IMG/VR virus record: IMGVR_UViG_3300028025_000091
Span: 32,001-96,000 of that record
DNA: 64,000 nt
Strand: one strand, 5' to 3'
Origin: a virus
A program made the translations under genes and the position numbers. Positions 31,552 to 52,882 of the stretch are shown one piece after another. The first letter of the stretch is position 1. Each line of letters starts with the position of its first letter. The notes beneath the pieces were generated by a model. It searched no databases. It had not been told where the DNA came from and worked only from the letters and a program-made list of their open reading frames with translations.

Positions 31552-33321
31552 ATGGCAGAAACAATTGTATCACCTGGTGTATTAGCAATAGAAAATGATC
31601 AATCATTTATAACACAACAACCTGTACAAGCAGGTGCCGCTATCGTAGGTCCAACAGTAAAAGGTAAAGTAGGTATTCCTACAATTTGCACAACATATAG
31701 TGATTATCTAAATAAATATGGTGCTACTTTTTTAAGTGGAAGTACTACATATACTTATCTTACTTCAATTGCTGCTTACAACTATTTTGCAGGTGGTGGA
31801 AACACATTACTTGTTACTCGTGTAGTAAGTGGTAGTACAACCACAGCTTGGACCCCAGCTACTTCATCATTTATATCCTCATCTGCTCATGCAGCCGGTG
31901 CCCCTTATAATACTTCAACATTTGTTTTAGAAACATTAGCTGAAGGAGAAATTTTAAACAGTGTAGGTCCTACGGGTTCAAATGGTACACTTTTAAGTGG
32001 TTCTGCAGATAATTACAGATGGCAAATTGTTTCTCCTGATACTAATAATGGAACTTTTACACTTGTTATCCGTCAAGGGAATGATTCAAATATTCAAAAC
32101 TCTATTTTAGAAACTTGGGGTCCACTTTCATTAGATCCATATGCTTCAAACTATATTGAAAAAGTAATTGGTAATCAAATTGAAAATATAGCAATAGATA
32201 ATGGTGAATACTACATCCAATTATCTGGAAGTTATCAAAACCAATCAGCTTATGTTCGTGTTAAACAAGTAAATCAAACCACACCAAATTATTTCGATAA
32301 TGTAGGAAACCCTAAAAATGAATTTACTGGATCAATCCCAGTAACTCAAAGTGGTGTATTTGGAGATGCAAAAGGAAGTAATATTCCTACATTTGCTGCT
32401 GGAGCGTATTATGAAAATATTTCAAATACTAATGTTCAAGGTTTAAAAGCTAATGATTATACAGAATCTATTTCTTTATTAGCAAATAAGGATGCTTTTA
32501 AATATAATTTATTAATTGCTCCTGGTTTAATTGCTGACCCACAATCTTTTAATTTACATAATGCTGTAGTAAATCAAATGATTACAACAGTTCAAGAAAG
32601 AGGAGATTCAATGGTAGTAACAGATGTAGTTGGATATGGATCAAATATCACCCCAGTAGTTACTAGTGCACAATCAAAAGATACTTCATATGCTGCGACA
32701 TATTGGCCTTGGTTACTCACTGTAGATCCTAATACATCTAATTATGTTTGGGTTCCTACAGCTACATTAATTCCTAGAGTATATGCTCAAAACGATGCTA
32801 TTGCTTATCCTTGGTTTGCACCAGCAGGTGTTAATCGTGGAATAATGACATCTGTTATTAAAACTGAAAGAGTATTAACACAAGGAAATAGAGATACATT
32901 ATATAAAGCAAACATTAATCCAATCGCAAATATTGCTACAGCTGCTGGATCAGCAATATCAGTATTTGGACAAAAAACATTACAGAAAAAAACAACTGCT
33001 TTAGATCGTGTAAATGTACGTCGTTTATTAATTGAACTTAAAAATTATATATCTCAAGTAGCTGATACATTTGTATTTGAACAAAATAATGAAGCAACAA
33101 GAAATAGTTTATTATCATTAATTAATCCTTATTTATCACAAGTTCAACAACAACAAGGTTTAACATCATTCCAAGTTATAATTAATGAATCAAATAATAC
33201 ACCTACTACAGTAGATCAAAATCAATTAATAGGCCAAATTTATTTGCAACCAACTAAAACAGCTGAATTCATTATATTAGACTTTAATATATTACCTACA
33301 GGTGCAACGTTTCCTGCTTAG
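31552..33321 (+). CDS. Tail sheath protein, copy 1 (gp18-like)
   Basis: SPGV..IE.D, PWFAPAG..RG, RDTLYKANINPI, GQKTL and DRVNVRRL. Confidence 0.93.
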   Translation: MAETIVSPGVLAIENDQSFITQQPVQAGAAIVGPTVKGKVGIPTICTTYSDYLNKYGATFLSGSTTYTYLTSIAAYNYFAGGGNTLLVTRVVSGSTTTAWTPATSSFISSSAHAAGAPYNTSTFVLETLAEGEILNSVGPTGSNGTLLSGSADNYRWQIVSPDTNNGTFTLVIRQGNDSNIQNSILETWGPLSLDPYASNYIEKVIGNQIENIAIDNGEYYIQLSGSYQNQSAYVRVKQVNQTTPNYFDNVGNPKNEFTGSIPVTQSGVFGDAKGSNIPTFAAGAYYENISNTNVQGLKANDYTESISLLANKDAFKYNLLIAPGLIADPQSFNLHNAVVNQMITTVQERGDSMVVTDVVGYGSNITPVVTSAQSKDTSYAATYWPWLLTVDPNTSNYVWVPTATLIPRVYAQNDAIAYPWFAPAGVNRGIMTSVIKTERVLTQGNRDTLYKANINPIANIATAAGSAISVFGQKTLQKKTTALDRVNVRRLLIELKNYISQVADTFVFEQNNEATRNSLLSLINPYLSQVQQQQGLTSFQVIINESNNTPTTVDQNQLIGQIYLQPTKTAEFIILDFNILPTGATFPA

Positions 33322-33367: not shown

Positions 33368-35086
33368 ATGGCAAATTTTACAACTTCTCCTGGAGTAGCA
33401 ATTAGCGAAATAGATAACACTTATTTGACAGGACAACCTGTTCAAGCGGGTGCTGCTATTGTAGGCCCAACAGTTAAAGGACCTGTTGAGACACCAACCT
33501 TAGTAACCTCTTATTCAGATTACGTAACAAAGTTTGGAGAAACATTTATTAGTGGTGGTCAATCATATTCATATTTAACTTCAATTGCTGCTTATAATTA
33601 TTTCAATTATGGAGGAACTTCATTATTAGTTGCTCGTGTAGTAACTGCATCAGCTAACTGGGCATCAGCTCAAAGCACAACCATTCCAAATTACTTCACT
33701 TCAGCATCATTTGTTTTAGAAACAATTTCTGAAGGAACTATTATGAATAACTCAGGCTCTAATGCTTTAGGAGCTAATGGAACATTAAATTCAGGATCAT
33801 CTGATAATATTCGTTGGGAAATTACCAATTCAAATACTGGATCAGGAACATTTAATGTTTTAGTTAGACGTGGTAATGATACTGAATCTAATAAAGCAGT
33901 ATTAGAAGCATGGAATAACTTAACACTTGACCCTAATTCAAATCGTTATATTTCTCAAGTAATTGGTGATCAAGTATTGAATTATAATGCCGCGAATAAT
34001 CAAATGGAATTATCTGGAAGTTATCCAAATATGTCCCAGTATATTCGTGTTAAAACTGTTAATTACTCAACACCAGATTATTTTGATGCAAACGGTGTAG
34101 CAATTAGTGCTTATACAGCTTCAATCCCAGTAAACGGTAGTGGTTCAGAAGGAGGTTCATTTTATAATGCTAGTGGAACAGTAAATAGTACCATCAATTT
34201 ATATAATAATATTTCAACTAACACTCAAGGATTGATTGGTGCTAGTTACAATAATATGATTGCGTTAATGGGTAATCCTGAAGCTTACCAATTTAATCTT
34301 TTATTCACTCCAGGATTATTAAACGATACTCATACCGCTCAAATTACAAATATTATCTCTAATACAATTGCACGAGGTGATAACATGTATGTAATGGATT
34401 TAGGAGCATTTGGAACAACAACAACCGGTGCCATAATCCAAGCTCAAACACGTGATACTTCATACGCTGCATCTTATTTCCCTTGGGTTCGAATCATTGA
34501 CCCATCAACAGGAAAACAAGTATGGGTTCCAGCTTCAACAGTAGTACCAGGTGTATATGCATTTAATGATAAAGTATCAGCTCCATGGTTCGCACCAGCA
34601 GGTATTAACAGAGGTGGATTAAGTACAGTATTACAAGCTGAGTTGAAATTAACTCAAGGTAATCGTGATACATTATATGCAAATAATATAAACCCAATTG
34701 CAACATTACCTAAACAAGGAGTTGTAGTATACGGACAAAAAACATTACAAAAATCCCAATCAGCTCTTGACCGTGTAAATGTTAGACGTTTGATGATTGA
34801 ATTAAAAGGATATATTCGTCAAATTGCAGATACAATAGTATTTGAACAAAACAATATCACAACAAGAAATTCATTTATAGCACGTGTTACTCCATATTTA
34901 GAAGGAATCCAACAAAAACAAGGACTATATGCTTATAAAGTTGTTATGGATGATACAAATAACGGACCAGCAGTAATTGACCAAAACCAATTAGTAGGAC
35001 AAATTTATATCCAACCAACACGCACAGCTGAATTTATTTCATTAGATTTCATCCTAATGCCTACAGGAGCTCAATTCCCAGGATAA
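33368..35086 (+). CDS. Tail sheath protein, copy 2 (gp18-like)
   Basis: Same motifs as copy 1; full-length paralog with its own late motif. Confidence 0.93.
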   Translation: MANFTTSPGVAISEIDNTYLTGQPVQAGAAIVGPTVKGPVETPTLVTSYSDYVTKFGETFISGGQSYSYLTSIAAYNYFNYGGTSLLVARVVTASANWASAQSTTIPNYFTSASFVLETISEGTIMNNSGSNALGANGTLNSGSSDNIRWEITNSNTGSGTFNVLVRRGNDTESNKAVLEAWNNLTLDPNSNRYISQVIGDQVLNYNAANNQMELSGSYPNMSQYIRVKTVNYSTPDYFDANGVAISAYTASIPVNGSGSEGGSFYNASGTVNSTINLYNNISTNTQGLIGASYNNMIALMGNPEAYQFNLLFTPGLLNDTHTAQITNIISNTIARGDNMYVMDLGAFGTTTTGAIIQAQTRDTSYAASYFPWVRIIDPSTGKQVWVPASTVVPGVYAFNDKVSAPWFAPAGINRGGLSTVLQAELKLTQGNRDTLYANNINPIATLPKQGVVVYGQKTLQKSQSALDRVNVRRLMIELKGYIRQIADTIVFEQNNITTRNSFIARVTPYLEGIQQKQGLYAYKVVMDDTNNGPAVIDQNQLVGQIYIQPTRTAEFISLDFILMPTGAQFPG

Positions 35087-35693: not shown

Positions 35694-37892
35694 ATGAAAA
35701 AATTATTGATATTTCTTTTATTGACTAGTATAGGATACGGTCAATATTGTCCTGCATTAGGACCCGATCAAATATTACCTTGTGGTGTAGGATCAACTAC
35801 ATTAACCGCAGATTTAAGCCAATGTGGAGCGGGTAATAACCCCAATCAAACAACAAACTACACTGTTGCTTCCATACCGTATGTAGCCCAAACCAATACT
35901 GGAACATCTGTGTTTATGACAGATGATTCTCAACAAGGACCATTTAATATTGGTTTTAATTTTTGTTTTTTTGGAACGACATATGCCCAATTTTATATTG
36001 GATCAAATGGATGGATTTCGTTTAGTGGAGGTCAACCAACAACATTTACAACTCAAACTATCCCAACGGGGAATGCTTTAGTACCTAAAAATTGTATTAT
36101 GGGACCATGGCAGGATTGGCATCCTGGAATTGGTGGTCAAATTAAATACCAAACAGTAGGTGTAGCTCCATGTAGAAAATTAATTGTAAGTTGGATTGGA
36201 GTCCCAATGTTCAGTTGTACTGGAAATCAAGGTACATTCCATATTGTAATTGAAGAATCCACTAACTATATCAGTAACTATATTCAATCAAAACCTTCTT
36301 GTACCCAATGGCAAGGTGGAACAGCTATTGAAGGAATCCATAATGCTGCCGGAACCGTTGCAGTAGCAGTACCTGGAAGAAATTCCACAGTTTGGACAGC
36401 TACTAATGATGCTTGGAGATGGACCCCTAGTGGACCAGTAGTTACCCCAGTATTAACTTGGTATCAAGTAGGAAATCCTGTAGCTATTGGAACAGGCCCA
36501 AGCATTAATGTTTCACCTTTAACACCAACACAATATACTTGTCATTTTGTTTATCCAACTTGTAATGCTGGATGGTCTTCATGTAATGCTGGAACAAGCT
36601 TAGGACCTGATACTGTATTAGTTGTACCGGGACCTCCAAATTTACCAAACCCAACTATTTTTAATATTGATCCAACTTGTAATGGAGATTGTGATGGAAG
36701 TATCTTTATTTCCCCAAATGGAGGTACAGGAGTTCAATTAATTTCATGGAATGGTCCCCAACTTGGATTTAATCCATCAAGTTTATGTGCTGGTGTATAT
36801 TCATTTACTCTTACAGACGCTGCTGGATGTACAGTCTCTAATACTGTTACATTAGTAAATCCACCTGTTCCTGTAATTAGCCCTATTACTTATAACGATA
36901 CTATTTGTTACCAATCACCAATTGAAATCTATTCAGTAACTTCACAACCTGGATACACATATCAATGGTCTTCACTTTCCCAAATCACTTCAGGACAAGG
37001 TACAAATACTATAAATGTAGATTGGAGCTCATTCTCTTCAGGTTTTATTCCGGGTGCTATTATGGTAACAGGATATAATCAAAACAATTGTCCTAGTTTA
37101 CCTGAATCAATTGATTTAATTGTATTTAATATTTTACCTGTAATTGATCCTGCAGGTCCGTTTTGTTCAAATGATGAGTTTTCAACATTAAATGCTACAC
37201 CTATTGGAGGTGTATTTAGTGGAACAGGAATGATGGGTAATGATTTTTATCCTTTATTTGCTGATACTTTAGACAATTTTATAACTTATACCTATTTGCA
37301 AAGTGGATGCTCATTCGATACTACAATTAATATTACTGTTTACGAACAGCCAACTATTACCTCAATTACACCATATAATGAATTCTTTGAACTGTGTGAT
37401 GGTGATTCTATACCAAGTACATACTCGGTAGTTGCTTCTTTACCCGGTTATAATGAATGGACTATATTGAATAATACCGTCCAAACAGAAACACTAAATA
37501 TCGCTTGGAACGCGCCCGGAATGTTTGATATTTCGGTAGTACATTATTCAAATGGATGTCCCTCCCCACAACAACAAACAGTAATTACTATTGTACAATG
37601 TCCTGAGCTATTATTCTTTGTTCCAAATTCATTCACCCCGGATGGAAACGAACATAATAATTCTTTTAAATGGACTTTTACAAGTGGATTTGATCCTTAT
37701 AATTTTCATGTAGAAATTTATAATAGGTGGGGAGAAATGATTTATGAAAGTCATGACCCTAATGATTATTGGGATGGAACATATGCTAATATCCCTTGCA
37801 CCCCAGGATTATACAATTACAAAGTTGATTTTAAAAGTCAAAAAGATGATGGTAAATATGAATTTGTAGGAAGTGTTAATCTTATTAGATAG
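35694..37892 (+). CDS. Secreted adhesin-like protein with T9SS type B (gliding-motility/CHU_C) sorting domain
   Basis: Signal peptide; NIDO-like (IGFNFCFFG..Y.QFYIGSNGWISF); SprB-like repeat (PTCNGDCDGSI...TDAAGC); PKD-like (GQGTNTINVDW); C-terminal VPNSFTPDG...IYNRWGE...WDG. Confidence 0.85.
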   Translation: MKKLLIFLLLTSIGYGQYCPALGPDQILPCGVGSTTLTADLSQCGAGNNPNQTTNYTVASIPYVAQTNTGTSVFMTDDSQQGPFNIGFNFCFFGTTYAQFYIGSNGWISFSGGQPTTFTTQTIPTGNALVPKNCIMGPWQDWHPGIGGQIKYQTVGVAPCRKLIVSWIGVPMFSCTGNQGTFHIVIEESTNYISNYIQSKPSCTQWQGGTAIEGIHNAAGTVAVAVPGRNSTVWTATNDAWRWTPSGPVVTPVLTWYQVGNPVAIGTGPSINVSPLTPTQYTCHFVYPTCNAGWSSCNAGTSLGPDTVLVVPGPPNLPNPTIFNIDPTCNGDCDGSIFISPNGGTGVQLISWNGPQLGFNPSSLCAGVYSFTLTDAAGCTVSNTVTLVNPPVPVISPITYNDTICYQSPIEIYSVTSQPGYTYQWSSLSQITSGQGTNTINVDWSSFSSGFIPGAIMVTGYNQNNCPSLPESIDLIVFNILPVIDPAGPFCSNDEFSTLNATPIGGVFSGTGMMGNDFYPLFADTLDNFITYTYLQSGCSFDTTINITVYEQPTITSITPYNEFFELCDGDSIPSTYSVVASLPGYNEWTILNNTVQTETLNIAWNAPGMFDISVVHYSNGCPSPQQQTVITIVQCPELLFFVPNSFTPDGNEHNNSFKWTFTSGFDPYNFHVEIYNRWGEMIYESHDPNDYWDGTYANIPCTPGLYNYKVDFKSQKDDGKYEFVGSVNLIR

Positions 37893-38323: not shown

Positions 38324-39055
38324 ATGGAAGAATTTAAAACACCAACCGAAAAGGTTGAATTACCCTCAAAAGGTTTAGTTTACCCCCCAGAAAATCCTTT
38401 ATCACAAGGTTATGTTGAAATGAAATACATGACCGCTAAAGAAGAAGATATTCTTCTTAATGCAAACTATATCAAAAGTGGTACTGCTATCGATAAATTA
38501 TTGAAATCAATGATTGTAACTCCAATTAACTATGATGATTTAATCACTGGAGATAAAAATGCAATTATGATTGCTTCTCGTATTTTAGGATATGGTTCTG
38601 AATATACATTTACATATAATGATGAAGAACATACAGTTGATTTATCCCAATTAGAACCTAAAGAATTAGACGAATCTAAATTCACCGCAGGGGTAAATGA
38701 ATTTGATTATATATTCCCATTCTCTAAAACAAATATTACATTTAAGTTACTCCAACACCGCGACGAAAATAATATCCAACGCGAATTAGATGGGCTTAAA
38801 AAAATCAATAAAGATAATTCACCTGAATTATCCACTCGAATGAAATTTCTTATTACATCAGTTGATGGAAGTAGAGATTCAAAGTTAATTCGAGAGTTTG
38901 TAGATAAACATCTCTTAGCACGAGACGCTAAGTCTCTTAGAACATATATTAAAGATTTCCAACCAGACGTAGATCTAACTTTTTTTCCCTCTGGGGAATC
39001 GGATAGAGTCTCTATCCCAATTGGGCTTAAGTTTTTTTGGCCTGACTTCGAGTGA
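38324..39055 (+). CDS. Tail assembly chaperone/baseplate hub assembly protein (T4 gp26-like)
   Basis: VELPSKG..Y, MTAKEEDIL, GDKNAI..ASR..GYG and C-terminal FFWPD; lies upstream of the tape measure. Confidence 0.75.
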   Translation: MEEFKTPTEKVELPSKGLVYPPENPLSQGYVEMKYMTAKEEDILLNANYIKSGTAIDKLLKSMIVTPINYDDLITGDKNAIMIASRILGYGSEYTFTYNDEEHTVDLSQLEPKELDESKFTAGVNEFDYIFPFSKTNITFKLLQHRDENNIQRELDGLKKINKDNSPELSTRMKFLITSVDGSRDSKLIREFVDKHLLARDAKSLRTYIKDFQPDVDLTFFPSGESDRVSIPIGLKFFWPDFE

Positions 39056-44472: not shown

Positions 44473-44784
44473 ATGAATCGATATAATGTAGCTCAAGTAG
44501 TTAAAACTGTAGAAGATCCAAGAAGAAGATATACAAATATAAAGTATCCTTCAATTTTGCCATCTTCTGCTGATATTTATATATATACGGGTCAAGGAGA
44601 TAGATATGATACTTTGGCTTTAACATATTATAGTGATACTACGTTATGGTGGGTTATTAGTAGATCAAATCCTTCCCAACCAAACGATACATTATATCCG
44701 AATGTTGGAGCTCAAATTAGAATACCTGCCTCTTCTAGAATCCCACAATTAATATCTGCATTCCAGAATTTAAATAGTATTTAA
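44473..44784 (+). CDS. LysM-like baseplate wedge protein (gp53/tail X-like)
   Basis: GDRYDTLA..YY.D.TLWWVI..SN...G.QIRIP. Confidence 0.8.
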   Translation: MNRYNVAQVVKTVEDPRRRYTNIKYPSILPSSADIYIYTGQGDRYDTLALTYYSDTTLWWVISRSNPSQPNDTLYPNVGAQIRIPASSRIPQLISAFQNLNSI

Positions 44785-44797
44785 AATTTAAAAAGTT

Positions 44798-47467
44798 ATG
44801 GCATTAATAGGAGAACCAATCCCTCAATACGTTCAAAATCAAATACAAGTTCGACAAGCTTCTTATGGTAGTGGTAGTCTTCCTGGTTTCCCAAGAACTG
44901 AGGAAATTTTACTCCACCAAAATTCCAATAATGCCTTTATTAAAATGGCATCTGGAGTTTCAATTTCAGCTGAGAAATTATCAGGATCAATGAATAGTTT
45001 AGGTTTTGGTGCTTTTGAAGTAGAAGCATTACAGGGGATGGGACTTGCTAAAAACTATGTTTTATTTGGTGGAACTGCTCAAATGGGAACATCCCCATCA
45101 GGTGAGGGAGTTCTTCAACAAAAGACTAATTTTTTAGGAAATCAAGGAGCATATGAAGCTACACCTAATTTCGGAATAGTTCCAATGCCAGGCATAGATA
45201 GTTTAGAAGTAAAATCACTAAATAGAGGATCATTAAAAAAAGCAACAGTAAAATTGACTGCCCAAACTAGAGATCAACTTGCTATTCTAGATGTTTTATA
45301 TATGCGTTTAGGATATACTGTTTTAATTGAATGGGGTAATTCTATTTATATGGCTTCTTCTGAACGGGAAACAAAAGATGGAAAAATTGAAGAAGGAAGA
45401 TTACAACAAATGTATACCTCTATTATAGAAAATAATTCTTTATTTTTTAATGCATCTTGGGAAAAGGGTAAGTCATATCTTGATCTTACAGAACAAATAG
45501 CTAAAGCTAGAAAAAATTATGATGGTAATTTTGATGCTTTACTAGGTAAAGTTTCAAATTTTAATTGGACATTTAACCCCGATGGATCATATACTATAGA
45601 ACTTACTGTTATCAGTTTGGGTGATGTAGTTGAATCTTTAAAAACTAACATTGCCGCTTCATATCAAACGTTAGCATATGTTGATACAAATGACCTTACT
45701 TGGGCTACTGAAGGTGAACCTATTGATACCTATAGAAAAGATAACATTATTCTTTCCATGCTCCATGTATTTAGACTACAAAATCTATCCCCTACAGGAG
45801 ACCCTATTACTATATATACTAAAAAAGGTGATGATTCTCTTCAAAAAAATGCTAAACTTGGAAATTTATTAGTTACAGGACCTCCTAGTATTAGTGGAAG
45901 TGATCATTATATAACTGAAACATTATATGTAGGATTTCAAGATAATGGAAAATGGATAGAACCTGGTGATTTAACAAATGAAGCCTATTGGGCCCCGGAT
46001 GGTCGAGAATTATCACAAGCTGAAGCCCAAACTCGAGCTAATGGTATTGCCGATAATGTTTTAGGTGGTAAATTAGAAGATTATAAAGGATATGGATATA
46101 AAGTAGTTGAAAGACCACTAAGTAGTGCTGTTGGTAGTGTTGGTATGACTGCAGGATCATATGCAAATTTCGCAACTTTAGTCTTTAAATACAAACGTGC
46201 CTTTCAAATATACACAGAAACATCCCCCAAATTTTCAGACGCTGCTTGGCTCCCATATATTGAGGTCCCTGCAGCTAGTAGAATGTCAGACCCTAAACTT
46301 GATACTAATCCTGTTGTTTTATACAGAAAAAACTTTGTAACTGAATACTCAGGTTACACATATGATGCTAAGAAAAAAGTCCCAGCAGCATCACTTGAGT
46401 ACATCACCCCATCAGCCCTCCTCTCCCCCTTATTTATCCAGGGTAATCCTTCTGCTATAGCTTCTGTTAAAGCAGGGACAAATGTCATTAAAGTTACTGA
46501 AGGTATTGATTCCAAAGAATCTTCCGTAAGTAGAGGATCTTTCAAAAATCCTTTAACAGGAACAGGATATGAAAAACAAGATGCTTTTGTAATAAAATTA
46601 GATAAACCCCAATATTATGTAAGATTTGGATATTTATTAAGTTTACTTAAACAAAAGGTTATTACTCGTATCAAAACTAATGATACCTCATATGAAAAAT
46701 ACCCAAACTTATTTGATATAAACACCTCTAATAATCAAAAAATGTTATGTTTACCCCTTCAAATATCTTTTGATTGGAGAACATGTATAGTAAAACGAGA
46801 AAATTTTTATAGAGATTCATGGAAACAAAATATTTTTAAAGAATTAGCAGACTGGGTGGATGGTAGTAATACCGCAAATATTATGAATATTTATTTGAAT
46901 TTTAATTTTCTTGCAAATTCTATGTCTTCTAATATGGATGAGCGAGGGAATGTCTCAGTATATGATTTTATTAAAGCGATATGTGATGGTATTAATAAAG
47001 CCATGGCCGGTGTAAACAACCTAGAACCTATTATAGATGAAGACACGAACACATTAAGTATTTTTGAATCATCCCCTATCCCTAAAGATTCCCCCGACCC
47101 AGGATATCATCTTCAACTTTATGGTTATGGAAATGGCGTTACTAGTCCGGCAGGAAATTCAACATTTGTTAGAAAAGTTGATTTAAAAACAGCAATCACC
47201 CCAGAATACGCTACAATGATTACTGTTGGAGCAACCGCTAATGGATACGTTAAAGGAGTAGAAGCAACAGCATTTGCTAGATGGAATGATGGATTAACAG
47301 ACAGATTCAAATCAGAACTTGTAGCAGCCGATAAAGATACTAACGACGATACCAAGGGAACTCGTGAGGATACCATTAATAGTTTTTTCCAAGCTATGAG
47401 TTGGAATGCTAAATGTTTTGGAATAGAAGGAGGAGGTAACCTCTGGGATATGTTCCCTAATCCGTAA
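44798..47467 (+). CDS. Baseplate hub/central spike protein, N-terminal part
   Basis: Follows the LysM gene; PMPGI.S.EVK..NRGSLKKATV, LYMRLGYTVLIEWG and GKVSNFNW.FNPDGSY. Ends at TAA TAA, in frame with the 47474 ORF. Confidence 0.65.
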   Translation: MALIGEPIPQYVQNQIQVRQASYGSGSLPGFPRTEEILLHQNSNNAFIKMASGVSISAEKLSGSMNSLGFGAFEVEALQGMGLAKNYVLFGGTAQMGTSPSGEGVLQQKTNFLGNQGAYEATPNFGIVPMPGIDSLEVKSLNRGSLKKATVKLTAQTRDQLAILDVLYMRLGYTVLIEWGNSIYMASSERETKDGKIEEGRLQQMYTSIIENNSLFFNASWEKGKSYLDLTEQIAKARKNYDGNFDALLGKVSNFNWTFNPDGSYTIELTVISLGDVVESLKTNIAASYQTLAYVDTNDLTWATEGEPIDTYRKDNIILSMLHVFRLQNLSPTGDPITIYTKKGDDSLQKNAKLGNLLVTGPPSISGSDHYITETLYVGFQDNGKWIEPGDLTNEAYWAPDGRELSQAEAQTRANGIADNVLGGKLEDYKGYGYKVVERPLSSAVGSVGMTAGSYANFATLVFKYKRAFQIYTETSPKFSDAAWLPYIEVPAASRMSDPKLDTNPVVLYRKNFVTEYSGYTYDAKKKVPAASLEYITPSALLSPLFIQGNPSAIASVKAGTNVIKVTEGIDSKESSVSRGSFKNPLTGTGYEKQDAFVIKLDKPQYYVRFGYLLSLLKQKVITRIKTNDTSYEKYPNLFDINTSNNQKMLCLPLQISFDWRTCIVKRENFYRDSWKQNIFKELADWVDGSNTANIMNIYLNFNFLANSMSSNMDERGNVSVYDFIKAICDGINKAMAGVNNLEPIIDEDTNTLSIFESSPIPKDSPDPGYHLQLYGYGNGVTSPAGNSTFVRKVDLKTAITPEYATMITVGATANGYVKGVEATAFARWNDGLTDRFKSELVAADKDTNDDTKGTREDTINSFFQAMSWNAKCFGIEGGGNLWDMFPNP

Positions 47468-47473
47468 TAAGTT

Positions 47474-48454
47474 ATGCCTAGTAGTTTCGTAGATTCAAGA
47501 ATAAACCAAAATTTAGAAGTAGCAACCGAATACTTTAGGGCTCTAGTATCCGAAAAAACCACTAATACTCTAAACAAAGTAAATAAATCCGCGGGTTCTA
47601 TAGGTTTTATTCCTTACAATGTATCATTCACTATGGATGGTATTAGCGGAATTAAAATTTATAACGAACTATCTTTAGATACAAGTTTTTTACCTCCTGG
47701 TTATTCCGAAGTTACTAATTTTATAGTAACGGGAGTAGATCATAAAATACAAAACGGTGATTGGGAAACTAATATAAATGTAACTCTTATTCCTAGAACT
47801 GATCCTATAGATAATGTCATTACAAGTAGTCTTACTATCTTTGGCCAAATTGAAACCGCTCCTCCTACCCCAACAACCCCAACAGGTCCAGGCAGTGGAA
47901 CAACAATTGTAGCTAGTAAATCATTAAAAGAAGTCCTTATAGCAGCAGGATATCCTACAGGTACATTCAAACATGAATTTGCACTTGTTATAGGTACTAA
48001 AGAGGGCTATGTAAAAGGTTCATCCAATAGGCCATCAAGAAATAACAACCCAGGTAATCTAGCAGGTGCAGATTTTAAAGACATAGACCCAGGTGTAGTA
48101 ATAGAACCACCAAATGCAAAAGGTGAACAAAAATTCGCTAAATTTACAACTCCAGAACTGGGTGCTAAAGCTTTGGTTGAGAGAAAGATTAAAACATGGG
48201 GGAATGGTGGATATCCACCAACACAGGTAAATGGAAAAGATACAACATACCAAAATAAATGGGGTGTACCTGCATCTACAAGAGATATTCAAGGAGACAA
48301 TGTTAAATTAACCATAGAACAATTTATGTATATATATGCCCCACCAAACCAAAATAACACTGAAGGATATATAAATTCAGTAATTAATGCTTTAAAAGGA
48401 AAATACCCAACAATAACAAGAACTTCAAGAATAATCGATTTTATAAATTTATAA
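47474..48454 (+). CDS. Hub C-terminal module + lysozyme-like domain (paralog 1)
   Basis: Shared ~130-aa N-terminus and P/T linker, then KEG...RNNNPGNL...FTTPELG...TIEQF...YAPP..NNT..YI. Confidence 0.7.
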   Translation: MPSSFVDSRINQNLEVATEYFRALVSEKTTNTLNKVNKSAGSIGFIPYNVSFTMDGISGIKIYNELSLDTSFLPPGYSEVTNFIVTGVDHKIQNGDWETNINVTLIPRTDPIDNVITSSLTIFGQIETAPPTPTTPTGPGSGTTIVASKSLKEVLIAAGYPTGTFKHEFALVIGTKEGYVKGSSNRPSRNNNPGNLAGADFKDIDPGVVIEPPNAKGEQKFAKFTTPELGAKALVERKIKTWGNGGYPPTQVNGKDTTYQNKWGVPASTRDIQGDNVKLTIEQFMYIYAPPNQNNTEGYINSVINALKGKYPTITRTSRIIDFINL

Positions 48455-48488
48455 TATATTACTTAAAACTTAAATATTTACCCCAATC

Positions 48489-49559
48489 ATGCCTAGTAGC
48501 TTTGTAGATTCAAGAATAAACCAAAACCTAGAAGTAGCAACAGAATACTTCAAGGCTCTTGTGTCTAAAAGGACCTATGATGCAGACAATAAATTGAATA
48601 CCGCTGCTGGGTCTTTAGGTTTTATTCCTTTTAACATGAATTTTACTATGGATGGAATAAGCGGTATTAAAATCTATAATAAATTATCCGTTGATACAAG
48701 TTTTTTACCTCCTGGATACACCAATACAATGGAATTTATAGTAACGGGAGTAGATCATAAAATACAAAACGGAGACTGGGAGACAAATATTAAAACTACT
48801 TTTATTCCAAAAACAGGTAAAATAGACAATTACATAACAAGTAGTCTTACCATCTTTGGTCAAGTTGAACAAGCACCCACTAATACACCCCCATCAGACC
48901 CAGGTGTAGTTTCAGGTACAGTCACAGATAATGATCTTTGGATATATTTAACTTGGCAACAAGGTGAGGGTGGTGCTGCAGAACATTATAAAATTGCTAA
49001 AGGAACTAGAGCTTCCTATAGTCTTGTTACAAAAGCAGCTATTAAAAACAACTGGCCTGGTAGTTTAGTAGCCTCTAATGGAGTTAAAAAATCAGATATT
49101 GATTCTTTATACACATCAAATCCTCAAAAATTATCTCAAGGTTTTATAGATGTTTGGAAAACACAATATAAATCAAGAACATCAACGGCCCCATCAAAGA
49201 TAGATAGTGCTGGATCAAATGAAGTTGGCCTTCCATACTCTACTATAAAAGCAGCATTCATTACCGCCGCTGATCCTTCAAATGGAATAGGATATTCAAA
49301 TCTTGTCAATTTTGCATATATAGAAAATTCTTTCCAAAATGATTCCGAAACTTCAAATCTATACCAAGGTATGTTCCAAATGAATAAAACTACTCCTAAA
49401 TATAAAGCAGTATTAGATAAATATAACGATGGTAAAGGACGTAATTCATCATATACTAAATATGGAACCTCAGATTTTACAGGTTTTATGAAAGATATAG
49501 TTCCATTAATAATCTCAAAATTTAAATCATTTAAAACCGCATCAGGTTACCCCAATTAA
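48489..49559 (+). CDS. Hub C-terminal module + lytic-transglycosylase-like domain (paralog 2)
   Basis: Shared N-terminus; YLTWQQGEGGA, AYIENSF and YQGMFQM motifs. Confidence 0.65.
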   Translation: MPSSFVDSRINQNLEVATEYFKALVSKRTYDADNKLNTAAGSLGFIPFNMNFTMDGISGIKIYNKLSVDTSFLPPGYTNTMEFIVTGVDHKIQNGDWETNIKTTFIPKTGKIDNYITSSLTIFGQVEQAPTNTPPSDPGVVSGTVTDNDLWIYLTWQQGEGGAAEHYKIAKGTRASYSLVTKAAIKNNWPGSLVASNGVKKSDIDSLYTSNPQKLSQGFIDVWKTQYKSRTSTAPSKIDSAGSNEVGLPYSTIKAAFITAADPSNGIGYSNLVNFAYIENSFQNDSETSNLYQGMFQMNKTTPKYKAVLDKYNDGKGRNSSYTKYGTSDFTGFMKDIVPLIISKFKSFKTASGYPN

Positions 49560-49570
49560 TAAAACTTTAT

Positions 49571-50488
49571 ATGCCTAGTAGCTTTGTAGATTCAAGAATA
49601 AACCAAAACCTAGAAGTAGCAACAGAATACTTCAAGGCTCTTGTGTCTGAGAAGACTTATGATATTAATAATAAATTAAATAAATCAGCGGGTTCTATAG
49701 GTTTCATCCCCTTTAATATTAATTTTACTATGGATGGAATAAGTGGTATTCAAATTTATAATCAATTATCTATTGATACAAGTTTTTTACCCCCTGGGTA
49801 TACTGATACTCTGGATTTCATAGTAACAGGGGTAGATCATAAAGTACAAAACGGAGATTGGGAAACAAATGTAAAAGTAACCCTTATCCCTAGCACCAAT
49901 CAGATAGACAATTCTATAACAAGTAGTCTTACTATCTTTGGTCAAGTTGAACAAGCACCTGCTACCCCATCATCAGGACCAACAGTAACAGCAACAGGGG
50001 CATGGAGGATTTGGAATAAAGGTATATTCATTACATCCCCATATGAATTAAATATCCACCATTCTGGTCCTGGTCAGGTTTTTGAAATAGATCCTTCAAA
50101 TACTAGAAGTGGAAAATGGTCAAAAAATTCTGTTGGAAAATACATTTATGATGTTTGCTTATTTAGAAACGAAGGTGGAATTGAACAAAATAGACCATTT
50201 GTTCCTTCCCCAACAAATGGAACTGTAATAAGTACATCCCCTGATTCTGGTGGAAATTCATTTTTCACTATCAAGGGAGATGATGGATTAATATATGATT
50301 TTCTTCATATGGATAATTATCAAGTAGGTGTAGGTGATAAAGTAACCAAAGGTCAATTAATTGCAAGACAAAGTGATGTCATGCAAGTAAGACCAGGATA
50401 CCCAAAAGCAAATCACTTACATATGCAGATGCCAACAAAACAAGCACTAATAGATTATATTAATAGTTTATTAAATAATAGTTTCTAA
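49571..50488 (+). CDS. Hub C-terminal module + M23 peptidase-like domain (paralog 3)
   Basis: Shared N-terminus; SPTNGTV, FLHM...VGVGDKVTKGQLI and HLH. Confidence 0.75.
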   Translation: MPSSFVDSRINQNLEVATEYFKALVSEKTYDINNKLNKSAGSIGFIPFNINFTMDGISGIQIYNQLSIDTSFLPPGYTDTLDFIVTGVDHKVQNGDWETNVKVTLIPSTNQIDNSITSSLTIFGQVEQAPATPSSGPTVTATGAWRIWNKGIFITSPYELNIHHSGPGQVFEIDPSNTRSGKWSKNSVGKYIYDVCLFRNEGGIEQNRPFVPSPTNGTVISTSPDSGGNSFFTIKGDDGLIYDFLHMDNYQVGVGDKVTKGQLIARQSDVMQVRPGYPKANHLHMQMPTKQALIDYINSLLNNSF

Positions 50489-50499
50489 TAGTTATAATC

Positions 50500-51141
50500 A
50501 TGGCATATTATCCAAAATCCCAAGTCAAAACTAATTTATATACCAATGGTAATGAATATGCTCTTAGTACCACACAACAAGAGTATACAGGATATTATTA
50601 TAAAACATCAAGTGGAAAACTATATACAGGAAAAAATCCACAAACAAACCCCACAATCCTTTTACAAATAATTACTCCTACATTAGATGATGTCCCTTCT
50701 AATGACTCTCTACAACCCCAATCATCTATTAATCCCATACCAAGATCATCTAATAATATACAAATAGTTAATAATTCCCCATCATCAATTGACTATCGCC
50801 CAGGAAATGCTGTAGACCGTGTTATCCCACAATTTAATGTAACCCTACCAACTGCTTCAGATAAACAAAGAGGATTCCTTATTCGCTATTTCTGCAAAAA
50901 GAATAATGAACTAATCTACTTTGAAACTTCCCAAGCAGACTATGATAGAATTAAAAGCCAAGACCCATCAACCGCATATGATTTATATTCAGTTGCTGCA
51001 CTTAAATGGTATATAACTGGAATTACCACTCAAGTTGCTAATCAAAATATATCCCAAGTCAACCAAACATCAGCGGCAAACGGATGGTTAGGTTTTATTC
51101 AATATTTCCAAGGAGACTTTACTAAATACTTGGGAACTTAA
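50500..51141 (+). CDS. Hypothetical baseplate-region protein
   Basis: YYPKSQ..TNLYTNGNE...Y.GYY and RYFCKK.NE; last gene of the tail block. Confidence 0.65.
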   Translation: MAYYPKSQVKTNLYTNGNEYALSTTQQEYTGYYYKTSSGKLYTGKNPQTNPTILLQIITPTLDDVPSNDSLQPQSSINPIPRSSNNIQIVNNSPSSIDYRPGNAVDRVIPQFNVTLPTASDKQRGFLIRYFCKKNNELIYFETSQADYDRIKSQDPSTAYDLYSVAALKWYITGITTQVANQNISQVNQTSAANGWLGFIQYFQGDFTKYLGT

Positions 51142-51160
51142 TATATAGTTTGTATCTTCA
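51129..51160 (+). promoter_or_regulatory. Bacteroidota-like promoter CTTG-N20-TATCTTCA
   Basis: Lies upstream of the polymerase ATG 51165. Confidence 0.5.
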
Positions 51161-51164
51161 AAGC

Positions 51165-52415
51165 ATGTATTGGCTCATAGAAGATATTGAACATATAGAA
51201 ACAATTTGTCGCATTAAGCACCAAGAGGCTTATGTAGACATTATTCCATGTTCACATACACTTCACCCTGTTGAAAACGAAGTATGTGCTATATATATTA
51301 GACCAAAAAATGATACAAAAGGATACATCATTGCTATAAACCATAGCGAAACAATAAACTTTGATTTAGAGGTAGTAGAAAGAGTATTAAACAGTATTGA
51401 AAATATTTATGTAAGGGATAGAAAAGAATTTTTACATTACTTCCCAATCAAGCACTGTTACCAACCATCACCCTCCCCCCATACGTATATACCTCAATTA
51501 ACACAAGCCCACACTCAGTTATATCATAGGTACCCACAAGTACAAAATCTAAACACAATTGTACCGATCGTAAAACACTATGAGGTATGTGAACAAAACT
51601 TTGCAAACTACGACAAAACAAACCTAAATCCGTTTTACAATAAGGCGGCATTAGTGTTTAATCAACTCGAACGAGCGGGTATAAAAGTGGATCAAATCAA
51701 ATTCGAGCAGTACTTCGACAAAGAAGCAAACGAGTTTATATACACGCAATATAATTTAAATACATTAACCACAAGACCTTCAAACGCATTTGGAGGCATT
51801 AACTTTTCAGCTTTAGATAAAAACAATGGAGAAAGAGAATGTTTCATACCGCGCAACAATTCGTTTATTGAAATGGATATTAGTGCTTACCATCCTACCC
51901 TTCTTGCTAATTTACTTGATTACACTTTCGATAGCAGTGATATCCATGGTAGTTTTGCTAAAATGTATGGAGTGGATTACGCCAAAGCAAAAGAGATCAC
52001 GTTTAAACAAATTTATGGTGGAATTTGGAAAGAGTATAGGGAACTTCCCTTCTTTAGAAAAGTAACAGCATATACGGACGATTTGTGGGATACATTCAAT
52101 TATGGGGGACACATCAAATGCCCAATTTCAGATCATAAGTTTTATAGCAAAGAACTGGAAAACATGAATCCACAAAAACTTTTGAATTATGTACTCCAAA
52201 ACTTGGAGACCGCAAATAATGTTTGTATACTATACGATATTTTTAAAATATTACGAGGGAAAAATACTAAACTCGTGTTGTATGTGTATGATTCGTTTTT
52301 ATTTGATTACGATAATAGTGAACCGGATGTAATGCTTAAAATATTAGGAATATTTAACAAATACAATTTACAAATAAAAACCAAAAAAGGCACAAACTAC
52401 GCCAATATAAAATAA
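51165..52415 (+). CDS. polA: Compact family A DNA polymerase
   Basis: TTRPS, motif A EMDISAYHP, motif B AKEITFKQIYGG, NYVLQ and motif C YVYDSFLFD. ATG 51165 is preferred. Confidence 0.8.
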   Translation: MYWLIEDIEHIETICRIKHQEAYVDIIPCSHTLHPVENEVCAIYIRPKNDTKGYIIAINHSETINFDLEVVERVLNSIENIYVRDRKEFLHYFPIKHCYQPSPSPHTYIPQLTQAHTQLYHRYPQVQNLNTIVPIVKHYEVCEQNFANYDKTNLNPFYNKAALVFNQLERAGIKVDQIKFEQYFDKEANEFIYTQYNLNTLTTRPSNAFGGINFSALDKNNGERECFIPRNNSFIEMDISAYHPTLLANLLDYTFDSSDIHGSFAKMYGVDYAKAKEITFKQIYGGIWKEYRELPFFRKVTAYTDDLWDTFNYGGHIKCPISDHKFYSKELENMNPQKLLNYVLQNLETANNVCILYDIFKILRGKNTKLVLYVYDSFLFDYDNSEPDVMLKILGIFNKYNLQIKTKKGTNYANIK

Positions 52416-52420
52416 AAGTT

Positions 52421-52882
52421 ATGTACAACACTCTTGAACAACCTCGTCATATGTATGATCAATACGACTATGATTCTACATTTGAAAATCTATTAATGAA
52501 TAACAGACTGTTTTGTACTTTTACTGCTTTGGCGGATTTGGAGGAGTTGGTGAGTGAATTATCAAGTCGTTATGTTATCATGTATGATAAAATGTTTGTA
52601 TTGCATATCAAAAGCAATAACGAGTATGTTGTAACATATAATGTAGATCAAGGAAATGTAAATGACATTCCCGACAATACAATTCTGGTACACAGAAAAA
52701 AAGAATCAAATACACTTTACACAATCAATGCTTTAAACGAATTAATCAAAAGATTAAATGGTGGAGTAGTTGACACACATTTCCCAGTGAATTGGCAACA
52801 TTATAAAAATTGTATATTGTTGACCCAACACAATGAAATTAAGCAACTTAATACAAAGATTTTTAAGATCGTTGAATTATAG
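52421..52882 (+). CDS. Conserved hypothetical protein in the replication module
   Basis: NRLFCTF, TYNVD and HRKKESNTLYTINALN; lies between polymerase and SSB. Confidence 0.7.
   Translation: MYNTLEQPRHMYDQYDYDSTFENLLMNNRLFCTFTALADLEELVSELSSRYVIMYDKMFVLHIKSNNEYVVTYNVDQGNVNDIPDNTILVHRKKESNTLYTINALNELIKRLNGGVVDTHFPVNWQHYKNCILLTQHNEIKQLNTKIFKIVEL

What the first reader, a model, noticed from the sequence alone, without database searches (positions are those of the whole stretch)
44798..50488. Split baseplate hub with three interchangeable C-terminal modules, each carrying a different cell-wall hydrolase
Seen: the 889-aa hub-like ORF ends ...CCG TAA TAA GTT ATG CCT, so the next ORF (47474) is in the same frame, as if one gene had been cut in two. 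The downstream half occurs three times in tandem (47474, 48489, 49571). All three share ~130 aa (MPSSFVDSRINQNLEVATEYF...GFIP.N..FTMDGISGI.IYN.LS.DTSFLPPGY...FIVTGVDHK.QNGDWETN...ITSSLTIFGQ.E.AP) and a P/T linker, then diverge into unrelated domains: RNNNPGNL lysozyme-like, SLT-like and M23 peptidase-like. Known: T4 gp27/gp5 and T6SS VgrG hubs are trimers, and the spike often carries one muralytic domain. Inference: a constant N-terminal hub half docks any of three adaptor-hydrolase halves. That could give a heterotrimeric puncture device with glycan- and peptide-cutting activities, or a population of virions with different enzymes, like evolved-VgrG effector swapping. Three copies matching three-fold symmetry is suggestive only.
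Basis: partly seen in the sequence, partly recalled or inferred. Interest (0 to 1): 0.9.

Follow-up and report, generated by a model that had tools for sequence, protein, structure and literature searches.

The report
Split tail hub with swappable wall-cutting enzymes
In this uncultured large phage, a tail-tip hub protein that related phages make as one chain with a cell-wall-cutting enzyme at its end is split, and the detached end is present as three tandem genes that share one docking domain but carry three different enzymes.

Summary
ORFs at 47474, 48489 and 49571 share an N-terminal ~130 aa (76-80% identity) and a Pro/Thr linker, then carry unrelated domains. These are a PHROG "tail injection transglycosylase"-type domain, a lysozyme/lytic-transglycosylase fold with conserved E-N and GMFQ motifs, and Peptidase_M23.

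The "split gene" reading is largely supported. Many relatives, including cultured Flavobacterium phage immuto, encode hub body, shared domain and hydrolase as one colinear 940-1400 aa protein. The break falls in a ~16-residue connector.

The 889-aa protein folds like gp27/gpD/Tal/T5-pb3 hubs (modest Z of 5-6.5, but consistent). It follows the tape-measure gene and a small protein with weak, sub-threshold LysM/gpX-like hits.

A complex prediction docks the shared domain on the hub (ipSAE 0.72, best control 0.00). The docking residues are nearly invariant among the three paralogs.

Independent assemblies show split relatives with 1, 2 or 3 modules, never more, with at least seven enzyme types exchanged at the linker. 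One relative instead has three full-length fused hub genes.

The shared reading frame across TAA-TAA is incidental. An ordered 1:1:1 heterotrimer is not supported; mixed loading of equivalent sites is more likely. Presence in virions and enzyme activity are untested. This is a new variant of a known kind (hub-borne virion lysins).

The parts
44473..44784 (+). 103-aa small protein directly upstream of the hub gene (context for the hub assignment). It may be LysM/gpX-like, but that rests on sub-threshold hits only.
   Evidence: phrog_7145 'baseplate wedge subunit' 5.6e-11. Weak Pfam hits to Phage_tail_X (0.054, 13.6 bits against a cut-off of 22) and a LysM domain (0.29), both far below threshold. 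A protein of this size sits in the same position in all relatives and in phage immuto.
44798..47467 (+). 889-aa baseplate hub body (gp27/gpD/Tal/BHP-like), lacking the docking domain and enzyme that fused relatives carry at the C-terminus.
   Evidence: Model pLDDT 77.5. Foldseek top hit is the T5 tail-tip hub pb3, E 4e-4, with VgrG hits at prob 0.9. VIA Z 5-6.5 to MuSo2 43-kDa protein, diffocin, P1, VgrG1, PVC, phi812, E217, Mu, AFP and T4 gp27, over residues 40-275 plus about 690-790. BFVD hits are labelled gp27, baseplate hub and late control protein D. 714 homologs found.
47465..47473 (+). Split point: TAA TAA GTT, followed by the ATG of module 1.
   Evidence: It corresponds to a connector of about 16 residues in fused homologs: hub 1-878 aligns to P0100 1-743, and module residues 10-134 align to P0100 760-877.
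47474..47863 (+). Module 1, shared hub-docking domain (aa 1-130).
   Evidence: 48% identical to residues 760-875 of the fused homolog P0100.
47864..48454 (+). Module 1, Pro/Thr linker plus C-terminal putative muralytic domain (GTKEGY and NNPGN motifs).
   Evidence: phrog_7182 'tail injection transglycosylase' 2.1e-12, phrog_873 endolysin 3e-8, phrog_2276 tape measure 1.4e-6, over aa 180-307. Invariant E and NNPG in the family alignment. No Pfam or PDB sequence match.
48489..48878 (+). Module 2, shared hub-docking domain (aa 1-130).
   Evidence: Used as the partner (aa 1-111) in the complex prediction.
48879..49559 (+). Module 2, linker plus helical region and lysozyme-like / lytic-transglycosylase-like domain (core aa 233-356 = 49185-49556).
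   Evidence: pLDDT 96-98. Thirteen of the top 14 matches in VIA wide are lysozyme-fold enzymes such as MltC, Slt, Slt70, MltE, MltF, EtgA, phi6 lysin, phiKZ gp144 and T7 gp16, plus alpha-lactalbumin, which shares the fold; Z 5.1-5.9. E-N and G-M-F-Q are invariant in 12 homologs.
49571..49960 (+). Module 3, shared hub-docking domain (aa 1-130).
   Evidence: Its first 60 nt are identical to module 2.
49961..50488 (+). Module 3, linker plus Peptidase_M23 domain (Pfam match aa 211-293 = 50201-50449).
   Evidence: PF01551 E 9.8e-10, 39 bits against a cut-off of 28.7. Invariant HH...ExD, LHxD and HLH in 10 homologs.

Best explanation
The window is the structural region of an uncultured 174-kb myovirus, probably of a Bacteroidota host.

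The 889-aa protein is the body of the central baseplate hub, the gp27/gpD/Tal class that caps the tail tube and is trimeric in all solved examples.

In most relatives this hub continues through a short connector into a conserved ~120-aa domain, a Pro/Thr linker and one peptidoglycan hydrolase. That makes it a hub-borne virion lysin. In this lineage the gene has been cut in the connector. The conserved domain now forms the N-terminus of a separate ~300-aa protein and acts as a docking adaptor, packing against both tube-like domains and the N- and C-termini of the hub body.

The adaptor-enzyme gene has been duplicated into three tandem genes, and its enzyme part has been exchanged by recombination at the linker. 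The phage can therefore load a transglycosylase-type domain, a lytic-transglycosylase-like domain and an M23 endopeptidase onto the same hub site.

All three adaptors keep the same docking residues. The three sites of a hub trimer are therefore most likely filled by whichever paralogs are available (mixed loading), not in a fixed order.

After sheath contraction carries the hub through the outer membrane, the tethered enzymes would cut both the glycan strands and the peptide cross-links locally, so that the tube can pass.

Shown here: the paralogy, the fused homologs, the colinearity, the conserved arrangement in independent assemblies, and the domain assignments. Inferred: docking (predicted only), trimer stoichiometry, presence in virions, enzymatic activity and timing.
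For: (1) Fused homologs.
- Phage immuto gp237 (938 aa) combines a hub homolog (E 6e-30 and 5e-15), the shared domain (res 645-718, E 3e-9) and VanY.
- P0100 and others are colinear, with the shared domain at about 760-875 (48% identity, E 1e-37) followed by lysozyme, Phage_lysozyme2, GH19 or M15_4 domains.
- Among the 150 best cluster representatives, 50 are stand-alone and 52 are fused with the hub N-terminus.
- In 77 IMG/VR loci, about 60 have one fused gene and 12 are split.

(2) Hub identity. Structural matches are dominated by phage, tailocin, eCIS and T6SS hubs. The gene lies downstream of the 750-aa presumed tape-measure gene and directly after a small protein with weak, sub-threshold LysM/gpX-like hits.

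(3) Docking.
- ESMFold2 complex of hub 1-889 with module 2 residues 1-111: ipSAE 0.72 in all three runs, best of 3 controls 0.00. That mark was reached by 58 of 80 solved complexes and 2 of 110 mismatched pairs. The runs share at least 77% of contacts, partner pLDDT is 67-69, and there are about 240 confident contacts. No similar complex is solved, so memory of a known structure is unlikely.
- The domain alone models poorly (pLDDT 37-79), as expected for a piece of a larger fold.
- Predicted contact residues are invariant among the three paralogs at 55 of 64 positions, against 26 of 47 elsewhere (Fisher p 5e-4). Hub contact columns are more conserved than the rest (0.71 vs 0.49).

(4) Real and conserved arrangement.
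- Split relatives from many samples carry 1-3 tandem modules directly after the hub.
- Contigs of an independent study bridge the module 1 to 2 and module 2 to 3 junctions.

(5) Enzyme swapping.
- At least 7 C-terminal clusters occur in 9 genomes. The module family carries M23, VanY, M15_4, Phage_lysozyme2, GH19 and Hydrolase_2.
- Module 1 is 97% identical to P0121 through residue 129 and unrelated after it.
- The N-domain tree does not follow enzyme type.
Against: - No experimental datum shows any of these proteins in a virion.
- The hub assignment rests on modest structural scores (Z 5-6.5, in the range where common arrangements also score), mixed with unrelated kinase N-lobes in the list. 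No Pfam, PHROG, NCBIfam or PDB sequence match exists.
- The fold of the shared domain is unresolved.
- The complex score is a model's own confidence, and the alignments used were my own, so the calibration holds only roughly.
- Modules 1 and 2 have no curated-family hit, and catalytic competence is inferred from motifs.
- The first zinc motif of the M23 domain is atypical (HH...ExD instead of HxxxD).
- The Gram-negative host is inferred only from the nearest cultured relative and from T9SS-type domains in a neighbouring phage gene.
Confidence: 0.7

Rival explanations
1. Ordered heterotrimer: the hub trimer carries exactly one copy of each of the three modules. Three genes exist because there are three positions, and contacts between modules fix the order.
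For: No split relative has more than three modules. One relative (L074) has exactly three full-length fused hub paralogs in tandem. The window phage has three.
Against: Most split relatives have two modules and one has a single module, so 1:1:1 cannot be a requirement of assembly. The predicted docking residues are almost identical in the three paralogs (55 of 64 invariant), which gives no basis for site discrimination on a symmetric trimer. N-domains of one genome tend to homogenise: modules 2 and 3 share an identical first 60 nt, and paralogs cluster within genomes.
Confidence: 0.12
2. The modules are not virion parts but soluble lysis enzymes (endolysins). Their N-terminal domain, derived from a hub, now serves another role such as wall binding or regulation.
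For: M23, VanY, lysozyme and transglycosylase domains are also typical endolysin domains. phrog_873 and phrog_3578 'endolysin' are among the hits. No virion data exist.
Against: The genes sit inside the tail module, 6-34 nt apart and directly after the hub gene, in every relative. The same domain is covalently part of the hub in most relatives. The docking surface is the most conserved part of the domain, and the complex prediction passes. No holin or spanin hit lies beside them.
Confidence: 0.1
3. The 889-aa protein is not the axial hub but another large baseplate or tail-tip protein, and the enzymes hang from the periphery.
For: Structural scores are modest (Z of 6.5 or less). The upstream 714-aa protein is unassigned and could be the true hub. 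phrog_7145 upstream is labelled 'baseplate wedge subunit'.
Against: The best Foldseek and VIA matches are hubs from more than 20 different contractile and non-contractile systems, covering two tube-like domains. BFVD matches are labelled gp27, hub and gpD with prob 0.97-1.0. Fusion of a hub to a C-terminal wall hydrolase is the known Tal architecture (background knowledge; review PMC6116005).
Confidence: 0.12
4. Hub and module 1 are still made as one chain by read-through of the in-frame stops. Alternatively, the tandem array is an assembly artefact of collapsed strain alleles.
For: The same frame across TAA TAA GTT ATG. Repeats of 77-84% identity can mislead assemblers.
Against: There are two consecutive TAA codons, and TAA ends 47 of 56 genes in the window. 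In relatives the frame differs in 2 of 9 and up to three stops intervene. Every module starts with its own conserved ATG (Met-Pro-Ser). The same order is found in independent assemblies from many samples, and junction-bridging contigs come from another study.
Confidence: 0.03

Closest known systems
Tail-associated lysins (Tal) and baseplate hub proteins of siphophages, e.g. lactococcal Tuc2009/TP901-1 Tal and T5 pb3: a gp27-like N-terminal hub fused to a C-terminal wall hydrolase or fibre (background knowledge; general class reviewed in PMC6116005)
   Same: A hub-fold body with a peptidoglycan hydrolase tethered at its C-terminal end. The fused relatives of this protein (immuto gp237, P0100 and others) have exactly this layout. 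T5 pb3 is the best Foldseek match.
   Different: Here the enzyme part is a separate gene product that must dock non-covalently. It is present in three paralogs with different enzymes. There is no sequence similarity to Tal or pb3. The phage is a myovirus.
T4 cell-puncturing device (gp27)3(gp5)3
   Same: The hub and the lysozyme-bearing subunit are separate polypeptides. The enzyme subunit binds the hub through an N-terminal domain of about 130 aa and carries the enzyme behind a linker. gp27 is among the structural matches (1k28_D Z 5.2, 2z6b_D Z 5.4).
   Different: The modules have no C-terminal beta-helix spike; they end with the enzyme. An OB fold of the docking domain was not confirmed. There are three different enzyme subunits instead of one. 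The docking domain is a split-off piece of the hub protein itself.
T6SS VgrG paralogs and 'evolved' VgrGs (e.g. Vibrio cholerae VgrG1-3, where VgrG3 carries a peptidoglycan hydrolase; background knowledge)
   Same: A trimeric hub/spike class in which paralogs carrying different C-terminal effector domains can share one apparatus. The relative L074, with three full-length hub paralogs, is the direct phage counterpart. VgrG structures are among the matches.
   Different: In the window the variable part is detached from the hub and attached by an adaptor, so one hub gene serves all the enzymes. It is a phage virion, not a secretion system. No gp5-like beta-helix is present.
Tailspike and depolymerase adaptor systems (e.g. 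CBA120 TSP1-4, G7C gp63.1/gp66, Klebsiella multi-depolymerase phages; background knowledge)
   Same: A conserved N-terminal anchor domain with interchangeable C-terminal enzymes, several per virion, in tandem genes. Recombination breakpoints lie at the domain boundary.
   Different: Those enzymes degrade surface polysaccharides and sit on the baseplate periphery. Here the enzymes are peptidoglycan hydrolases predicted to sit on the central hub.

Membership tests
gp27/gpD/Tal-type baseplate hub protein | Two tube-like beta-barrel domains that adapt the trimer to the six-fold tube | tested here: met
   VIA alignments to more than 20 hub structures (MuSo2 3cdd Z 6.5, 197 aligned; P1 9vzk Z 6.2, 204 aligned; VgrG1 4mtk Z 6.2; T4 gp27 Z 5.2-5.4) span model residues 40-275 plus about 690-790. 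Foldseek top hit is T5 pb3, E 4e-4. BFVD gp27/hub/gpD rows have prob 0.97-1.0. The scores are modest, so this counts as met at fold level only.
gp27/gpD/Tal-type baseplate hub protein | Gene lies downstream of the tape-measure gene, next to a small LysM/gpX-type protein | tested here: inconclusive
   The order is sheath, tube..., 750-aa presumed tape measure, 101 aa, 109 aa, 714 aa, 103 aa, then the hub. The order matches phage immuto, where the tape measure is annotated. The tape-measure assignment in the window is by position only. The gpX/LysM hits of the 103-aa protein are far below threshold (Phage_tail_X E 0.054, 13.6 bits against a cut-off of 22; LysM E 0.29), and its only significant hit is phrog_7145 'baseplate wedge subunit'.
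gp27/gpD/Tal-type baseplate hub protein | Trimer on the tail axis in the virion | not testable with these tools
   Needs cryo-EM or native mass spectrometry.
gp27/gpD/Tal-type baseplate hub protein | Sequence membership in a curated hub family (Phage_GPD, Phage_base_V and the like) | tested here: not met
   No Pfam, NCBIfam or PHROG hit, even at relaxed thresholds. No PDB sequence hit with the single sequence or the profile.
Virion-associated lysin (VAL/VAPGH/Tal) | Carries a peptidoglycan-cleaving catalytic domain | tested here: met
   Module 3: Peptidase_M23 above the gathering score. Module 2: lysozyme/LT fold with conserved E and GMFQ. Module 1: PHROG transglycosylase/endolysin families. 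No activity has been measured.
Virion-associated lysin (VAL/VAPGH/Tal) | Is a structural component of the virion | not testable with these tools
   Only inferred, from covalently fused homologs and a passing complex prediction (ipSAE 0.72, best control 0.00; 58 of 80 solved complexes and 2 of 110 mismatched pairs reached the mark).
T4 gp5-type spike protein | C-terminal triple-stranded beta-helix needle | tested here: not met
   The modules end with the enzyme domain. The module 2 model shows a helical plus lysozyme-like C-terminus and no beta-helix.
T4 gp5-type spike protein | N-terminal OB-fold domain that docks in the gp27 cup | tested here: inconclusive
   The shared domain is modelled as a helix plus three strands at pLDDT 37-79. 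The best structural rows have Z of 4.3 or less and are unrelated proteins.
Peptidase family M23 | Pfam PF01551 above the gathering score, plus zinc and catalytic motifs HxxxD ... H ... HxH | tested here: met
   39 bits against 28.7. LHxD and HLH are invariant in 10 homologs. The first motif is atypical (HH-x7-9-E-x-D).
Family-1 lytic transglycosylase / GH23 lysozyme-like (module 2) | Lysozyme-like fold with a catalytic Glu (E-S motif) followed by G-L-M-Q | tested here: inconclusive
   Thirteen of the top 14 structural matches are lysozyme-fold enzymes (plus alpha-lactalbumin, same fold), but Z is only 5.1-5.9. E-N and G-M-F-Q are invariant and in the canonical order. No Pfam SLT hit, even at E of 5.

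The most novel reading that the evidence does not exclude
The split is an adaptation for combinatorial loading. One hub trimer offers three equivalent sockets, and a family of plug-in adaptor-enzyme proteins competes for them, with up to three genes per genome and enzyme domains exchanged by recombination at the linker. Individual virions would then carry mixed sets of glycan- and peptide-cutting enzymes, and the population would cover several wall chemistries. The cap at three genes, and the independent triplication of the whole hub gene in another lineage, would both reflect the three sockets. The ~120-aa domain would be a natural, transferable tag for mounting cargo on a phage tail tip.
Probability: 0.4. 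Interest if true: 0.72.

Novelty: new variant of a known kind. Interest (0 to 1): 0.6.

Why it matters
Hub-borne wall hydrolases are known. According to the review read here (PMC6116005), phages of Gram-negative hosts typically carry a single catalytic domain, and endopeptidases are found almost exclusively in phages of Gram-positive hosts. This lineage, apparently of Bacteroidota phages, encodes up to three separate hub-docking enzymes, including M23, VanY and M15 peptidases.

It also shows a clean natural experiment in protein architecture. The same function is encoded as one fused gene (most relatives), as a hub plus 1-3 plug-in genes (this clade), or as three whole hub paralogs (one relative).

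The family is large: 1516 clusters at 50% identity, 672 of them with E of 1e-10 or better. It is unannotated and has no solved structure.

If docking is confirmed, the shared domain is a compact tag for attaching enzymes to a tail tip. The system would be a phage counterpart of effector diversification on T6SS VgrG spikes. A cultured relative with the fused form (Flavobacterium phage immuto) makes part of this directly testable.

Tried and rejected
- Sequence searches of the hub, the shared domain and modules 1 and 2 against the PDB, as single sequences and as profiles, gave nothing meaningful.
- Pfam, NCBIfam and PHROGs gave no family for the hub, the 714-aa upstream protein or the downstream 213-, 421- and 153-aa proteins, even at E of 10.
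- Foldseek against the PDB found nothing for the module 2 model (best E 0.6). Only the Foldseek-independent search showed the lysozyme-like fold.
- The shared domain folded alone at low confidence and had no convincing structural match, so I do not name its fold.
- The ESM Atlas feature search for the module 1 C-terminal domain scored 0.86 or less, which is a lead only.
- Read-through or recoding at TAA TAA was rejected.
- The circular-permutation idea for module 2, from another first-stage note, was not needed: the motifs and the structural alignments are colinear with lytic transglycosylases.
- In the laid contigs, a joint from 47775 to 50495 (depth about 20 in two runs of one study, 'between: not known') could be a related strain with other cassettes or a deletion. 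It cannot be interpreted from contigs. A second joint, 49119 to 49664, has only 21 letters on one side and was ignored.
- Logan contigs break inside the repeated domain, so no single record spans the whole array.
- Literature searches found no description of this family or of split, multi-copy hub lysins. The heterotrimer in mycobacteriophage Mysterious (PMC13252515) is a peripheral accessory complex, not a hub.

Full report
**Setting.** The window is bases 32001-96000 of a 173,789-bp IMG/VR virus record that CheckV rates as complete. Nearly all ORFs lie on the + strand. GC content is 33%, and TAA ends 47 of 56 genes.

PHROG hits identify the large terminase, portal, major head protein, two tail-sheath paralogs and the tail tube. 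The phage is therefore a large myovirus. gp32-like and RecA/UvsX-like genes follow the region of interest.

The only cultured relatives in the phage collection are the Flavobacterium phages vB_FspM_immuto. A neighbouring phage gene has homologs with PKD_6 and CHU_C domains. A Bacteroidota host is therefore likely, but it is inferred.

**The observation.** The four ORFs and the CCG TAA TAA GTT ATG junction are as described. The three downstream proteins share their first ~130 residues (76-80% identity) and a Pro/Thr linker, and then have nothing in common.

The shared parts are 77-84% identical at DNA level, with 27-38 synonymous codon differences per pair. They are old paralogs under purifying selection. 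Modules 2 and 3 have an identical first 60 nt, which suggests a patch of gene conversion.

**The enzymes.**
- Module 3 is Peptidase_M23 (39 bits against a cut-off of 28.7). LHxD and HLH are invariant in homologs, and the first zinc motif is atypical.
- Module 2 has no sequence-family hit. Its C-terminal 210 residues model at pLDDT 96-98. In a Foldseek-independent search, residues 233-356 match lytic transglycosylases and lysozymes: MltC Z 5.9, Slt, Slt70, MltE, MltF, EtgA, phi6 lysin, phiKZ gp144 and T7 gp16. Thirteen of the top 14 rows are such enzymes, and the other is alpha-lactalbumin, which has the same fold. An E-N and a G-M-F-Q motif are invariant and in the canonical order.
- Module 1 matches PHROGs annotated as tail injection transglycosylase, endolysin and tape measure. 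It has invariant TKEG and NNPG motifs, but I could not assign a fold.

**The split is real.** Phage immuto gp237 (938 aa, annotated 'carboxypeptidase') aligns with the 889-aa protein over its first ~606 residues. It then contains the shared domain (645-718) and ends in VanY.

A search with the 889-aa protein found 714 homologs. One group is 860-950 aa long and ends as ours does. Another is 1000-1400 aa long and continues into Phage_lysozyme, Phage_lysozyme2, GH19 or Peptidase_M15_4. In P0100 the shared domain lies at 760-875 (48% identity, E 1e-37).

Hub body and module are colinear with the fused proteins. Only about 16 residues separate the two alignments, so the break is a clean cut in a connector.

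An exhaustive profile-free search with the 132-aa domain found 1516 clusters, 672 of them at E of 1e-10 or better. Of the best 150, 50 have the domain at residue 1 of a ~340-aa protein and 52 have it internally, behind a hub N-terminus. The stand-alone forms are the closest to ours, which suggests that the split is derived; no rooted tree was built to test this.

**What the 889-aa protein is.** The model (pLDDT 77.5) has T5 hub pb3 as its best Foldseek match in the PDB (E 4e-4), followed by other tail-tip and VgrG proteins.

In the second-look alignment, more than 20 hub proteins score Z 5-6.5 over residues 40-275 plus about 690-790. They come from Mu-like prophage, P1, diffocin, PVC, AFP, phi812, E217, T5, Mu, T6SS VgrG and T4 gp27. 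Viral models labelled gp27, baseplate hub or late control protein D also match, with prob 0.97-1.0.

These scores are modest and some unrelated rows are mixed in. What carries the assignment is the consistency of the matches and the gene order: tape measure, small proteins, a 103-aa protein with weak and sub-threshold LysM/gpX-like hits, then this gene. Residues ~280-690 are a large, variable insertion.

**Docking.** A complex prediction of the hub (1-889) with module 2 (1-111) gave ipSAE 0.72 in each of three runs, against 0.00 for the best of three controls. That mark was reached by 58 of 80 solved complexes and 2 of 110 mismatched pairs. The runs share at least 77% of their contacts, and partner pLDDT is 67-69. 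My own alignments were used, so the calibration holds only roughly. No similar complex is solved.

The interface is very large, with about 240 confident contacts. It joins the module's helix (residues 1-24) and strands (46-72, 82-98) to the hub's N-terminus, both tube-like domains and the C-terminal tail. It reads as a piece of one fold, which agrees with the poor confidence of the domain when modelled alone.

Contact residues are invariant among the three paralogs at 55 of 64 positions, against 26 of 47 elsewhere (p 5e-4). Hub contact columns are more conserved than the rest. All three modules should therefore compete for the same site.

**Not an artefact, and not unique.** Sixteen distinct split loci from many samples show the hub gene followed at once by tandem modules: three in 5 loci, two in 10, one in 1, and never more than three. 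About 60 other IMG/VR loci have one fused gene and no stand-alone module. Contigs from an independent study bridge the module 1 to 2 and module 2 to 3 junctions with 0-8 differences.

The frame relation at the hub-to-module-1 junction varies among relatives. Together with the double TAA, this rules out read-through.

**Cassette exchange.** Nine genomes hold at least seven unrelated C-terminal clusters. Across the family these include M23, VanY, M15_4, Phage_lysozyme2, GH19 and Hydrolase_2.

Module 1 is 97% identical to P0121 through residue 129 and unrelated afterwards, where P0121 has Phage_lysozyme2. Module 2's adaptor is 94-98% identical to adaptors attached to M23 or VanY elsewhere.

In a tree of the adaptors, well-supported groups mix enzyme types, and some genomes' paralogs cluster together. 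Recombination at the linker and local homogenisation have therefore both acted.

**A parallel solution.** Contig L074 carries three tandem full-length fused hub genes of 1065, 1110 and 1182 aa. They are about 41% identical to each other, and each has a hub body, a shared domain and its own C-terminal region. This is the phage counterpart of multiple VgrG paralogs. It makes the idea that up to three different subunits share one trimeric hub more credible, although it remains an inference.

**Conclusion.** The same-frame detail is incidental. The strict three-for-three reading is unlikely, and mixed occupancy of equivalent sites is the better guess.

The thing is a new variant of a known kind, hub-borne virion lysins, in a large, unannotated and structurally unsolved family. 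According to the review read here (PMC6116005), virion lysins of Gram-negative-infecting phages usually have one catalytic domain and rarely endopeptidases. That makes a three-enzyme set with peptidases unusual if the host assignment is right.

Noticed in passing
L074:1485-11599 (IMGVR_UViG_3300008448_001074): Three tandem full-length fused hub genes (1065, 1110 and 1182 aa, about 41% identical to each other). Each has a hub body, the shared domain and a distinct C-terminal region without a Pfam hit. The same 212-, 416- and 153-aa genes as in the window follow.
   Followed up: partly
window 31552-33321 and 33368-35086: Two tandem tail-sheath paralogs (589 and 572 aa), 51% identical over their full length. 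Both match phrog_23.
   Followed up: partly
window 35694-37892: A 732-aa ORF between the tail tube and the chaperone genes. Its homologs in related phages carry PKD_6 and CHU_C (T9SS-type C-terminal) domains. This is a hint of a Bacteroidota host and of a secreted or surface protein encoded inside the tail operon.
   Followed up: no
window 47775 to 50495 (joint in runs X3 and X4): Contigs of an independent study join the end of module 1's shared domain to the base just after module 3, at about 2-3 times the depth of the window's own strain ('between: not known'). This could be a co-occurring relative with other cassettes or a shorter array.
   Followed up: no
window 48489-48548 and 49571-49630: The first 60 nt of modules 2 and 3 are identical, while the rest of the shared domain is about 80% identical. 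This is a local gene-conversion patch.
   Followed up: partly
L026:895-4722 and L070:2500-8032: A split hub (948 aa) with only one module, and a split hub with a much larger central insertion (1126 aa) plus two modules. The split does not depend on duplication, and the central hub insertion varies independently.
   Followed up: partly
window 38324-39055: This 243-aa protein upstream of the presumed tape measure hits phrog_150 'baseplate hub' (3e-11) and, weakly, Pfam T4_baseplate (4.6e-4, below cut-off). Another first-stage note reads it as a frameshifting tail chaperone. The two readings were not reconciled.
   Followed up: no
window 50500-52882: The three genes after the modules (213, 421 and 153 aa) have no family hit. 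They are conserved in size and order behind both split and fused hubs in all relatives examined, so they are probably further tail-tip or baseplate parts.
   Followed up: no
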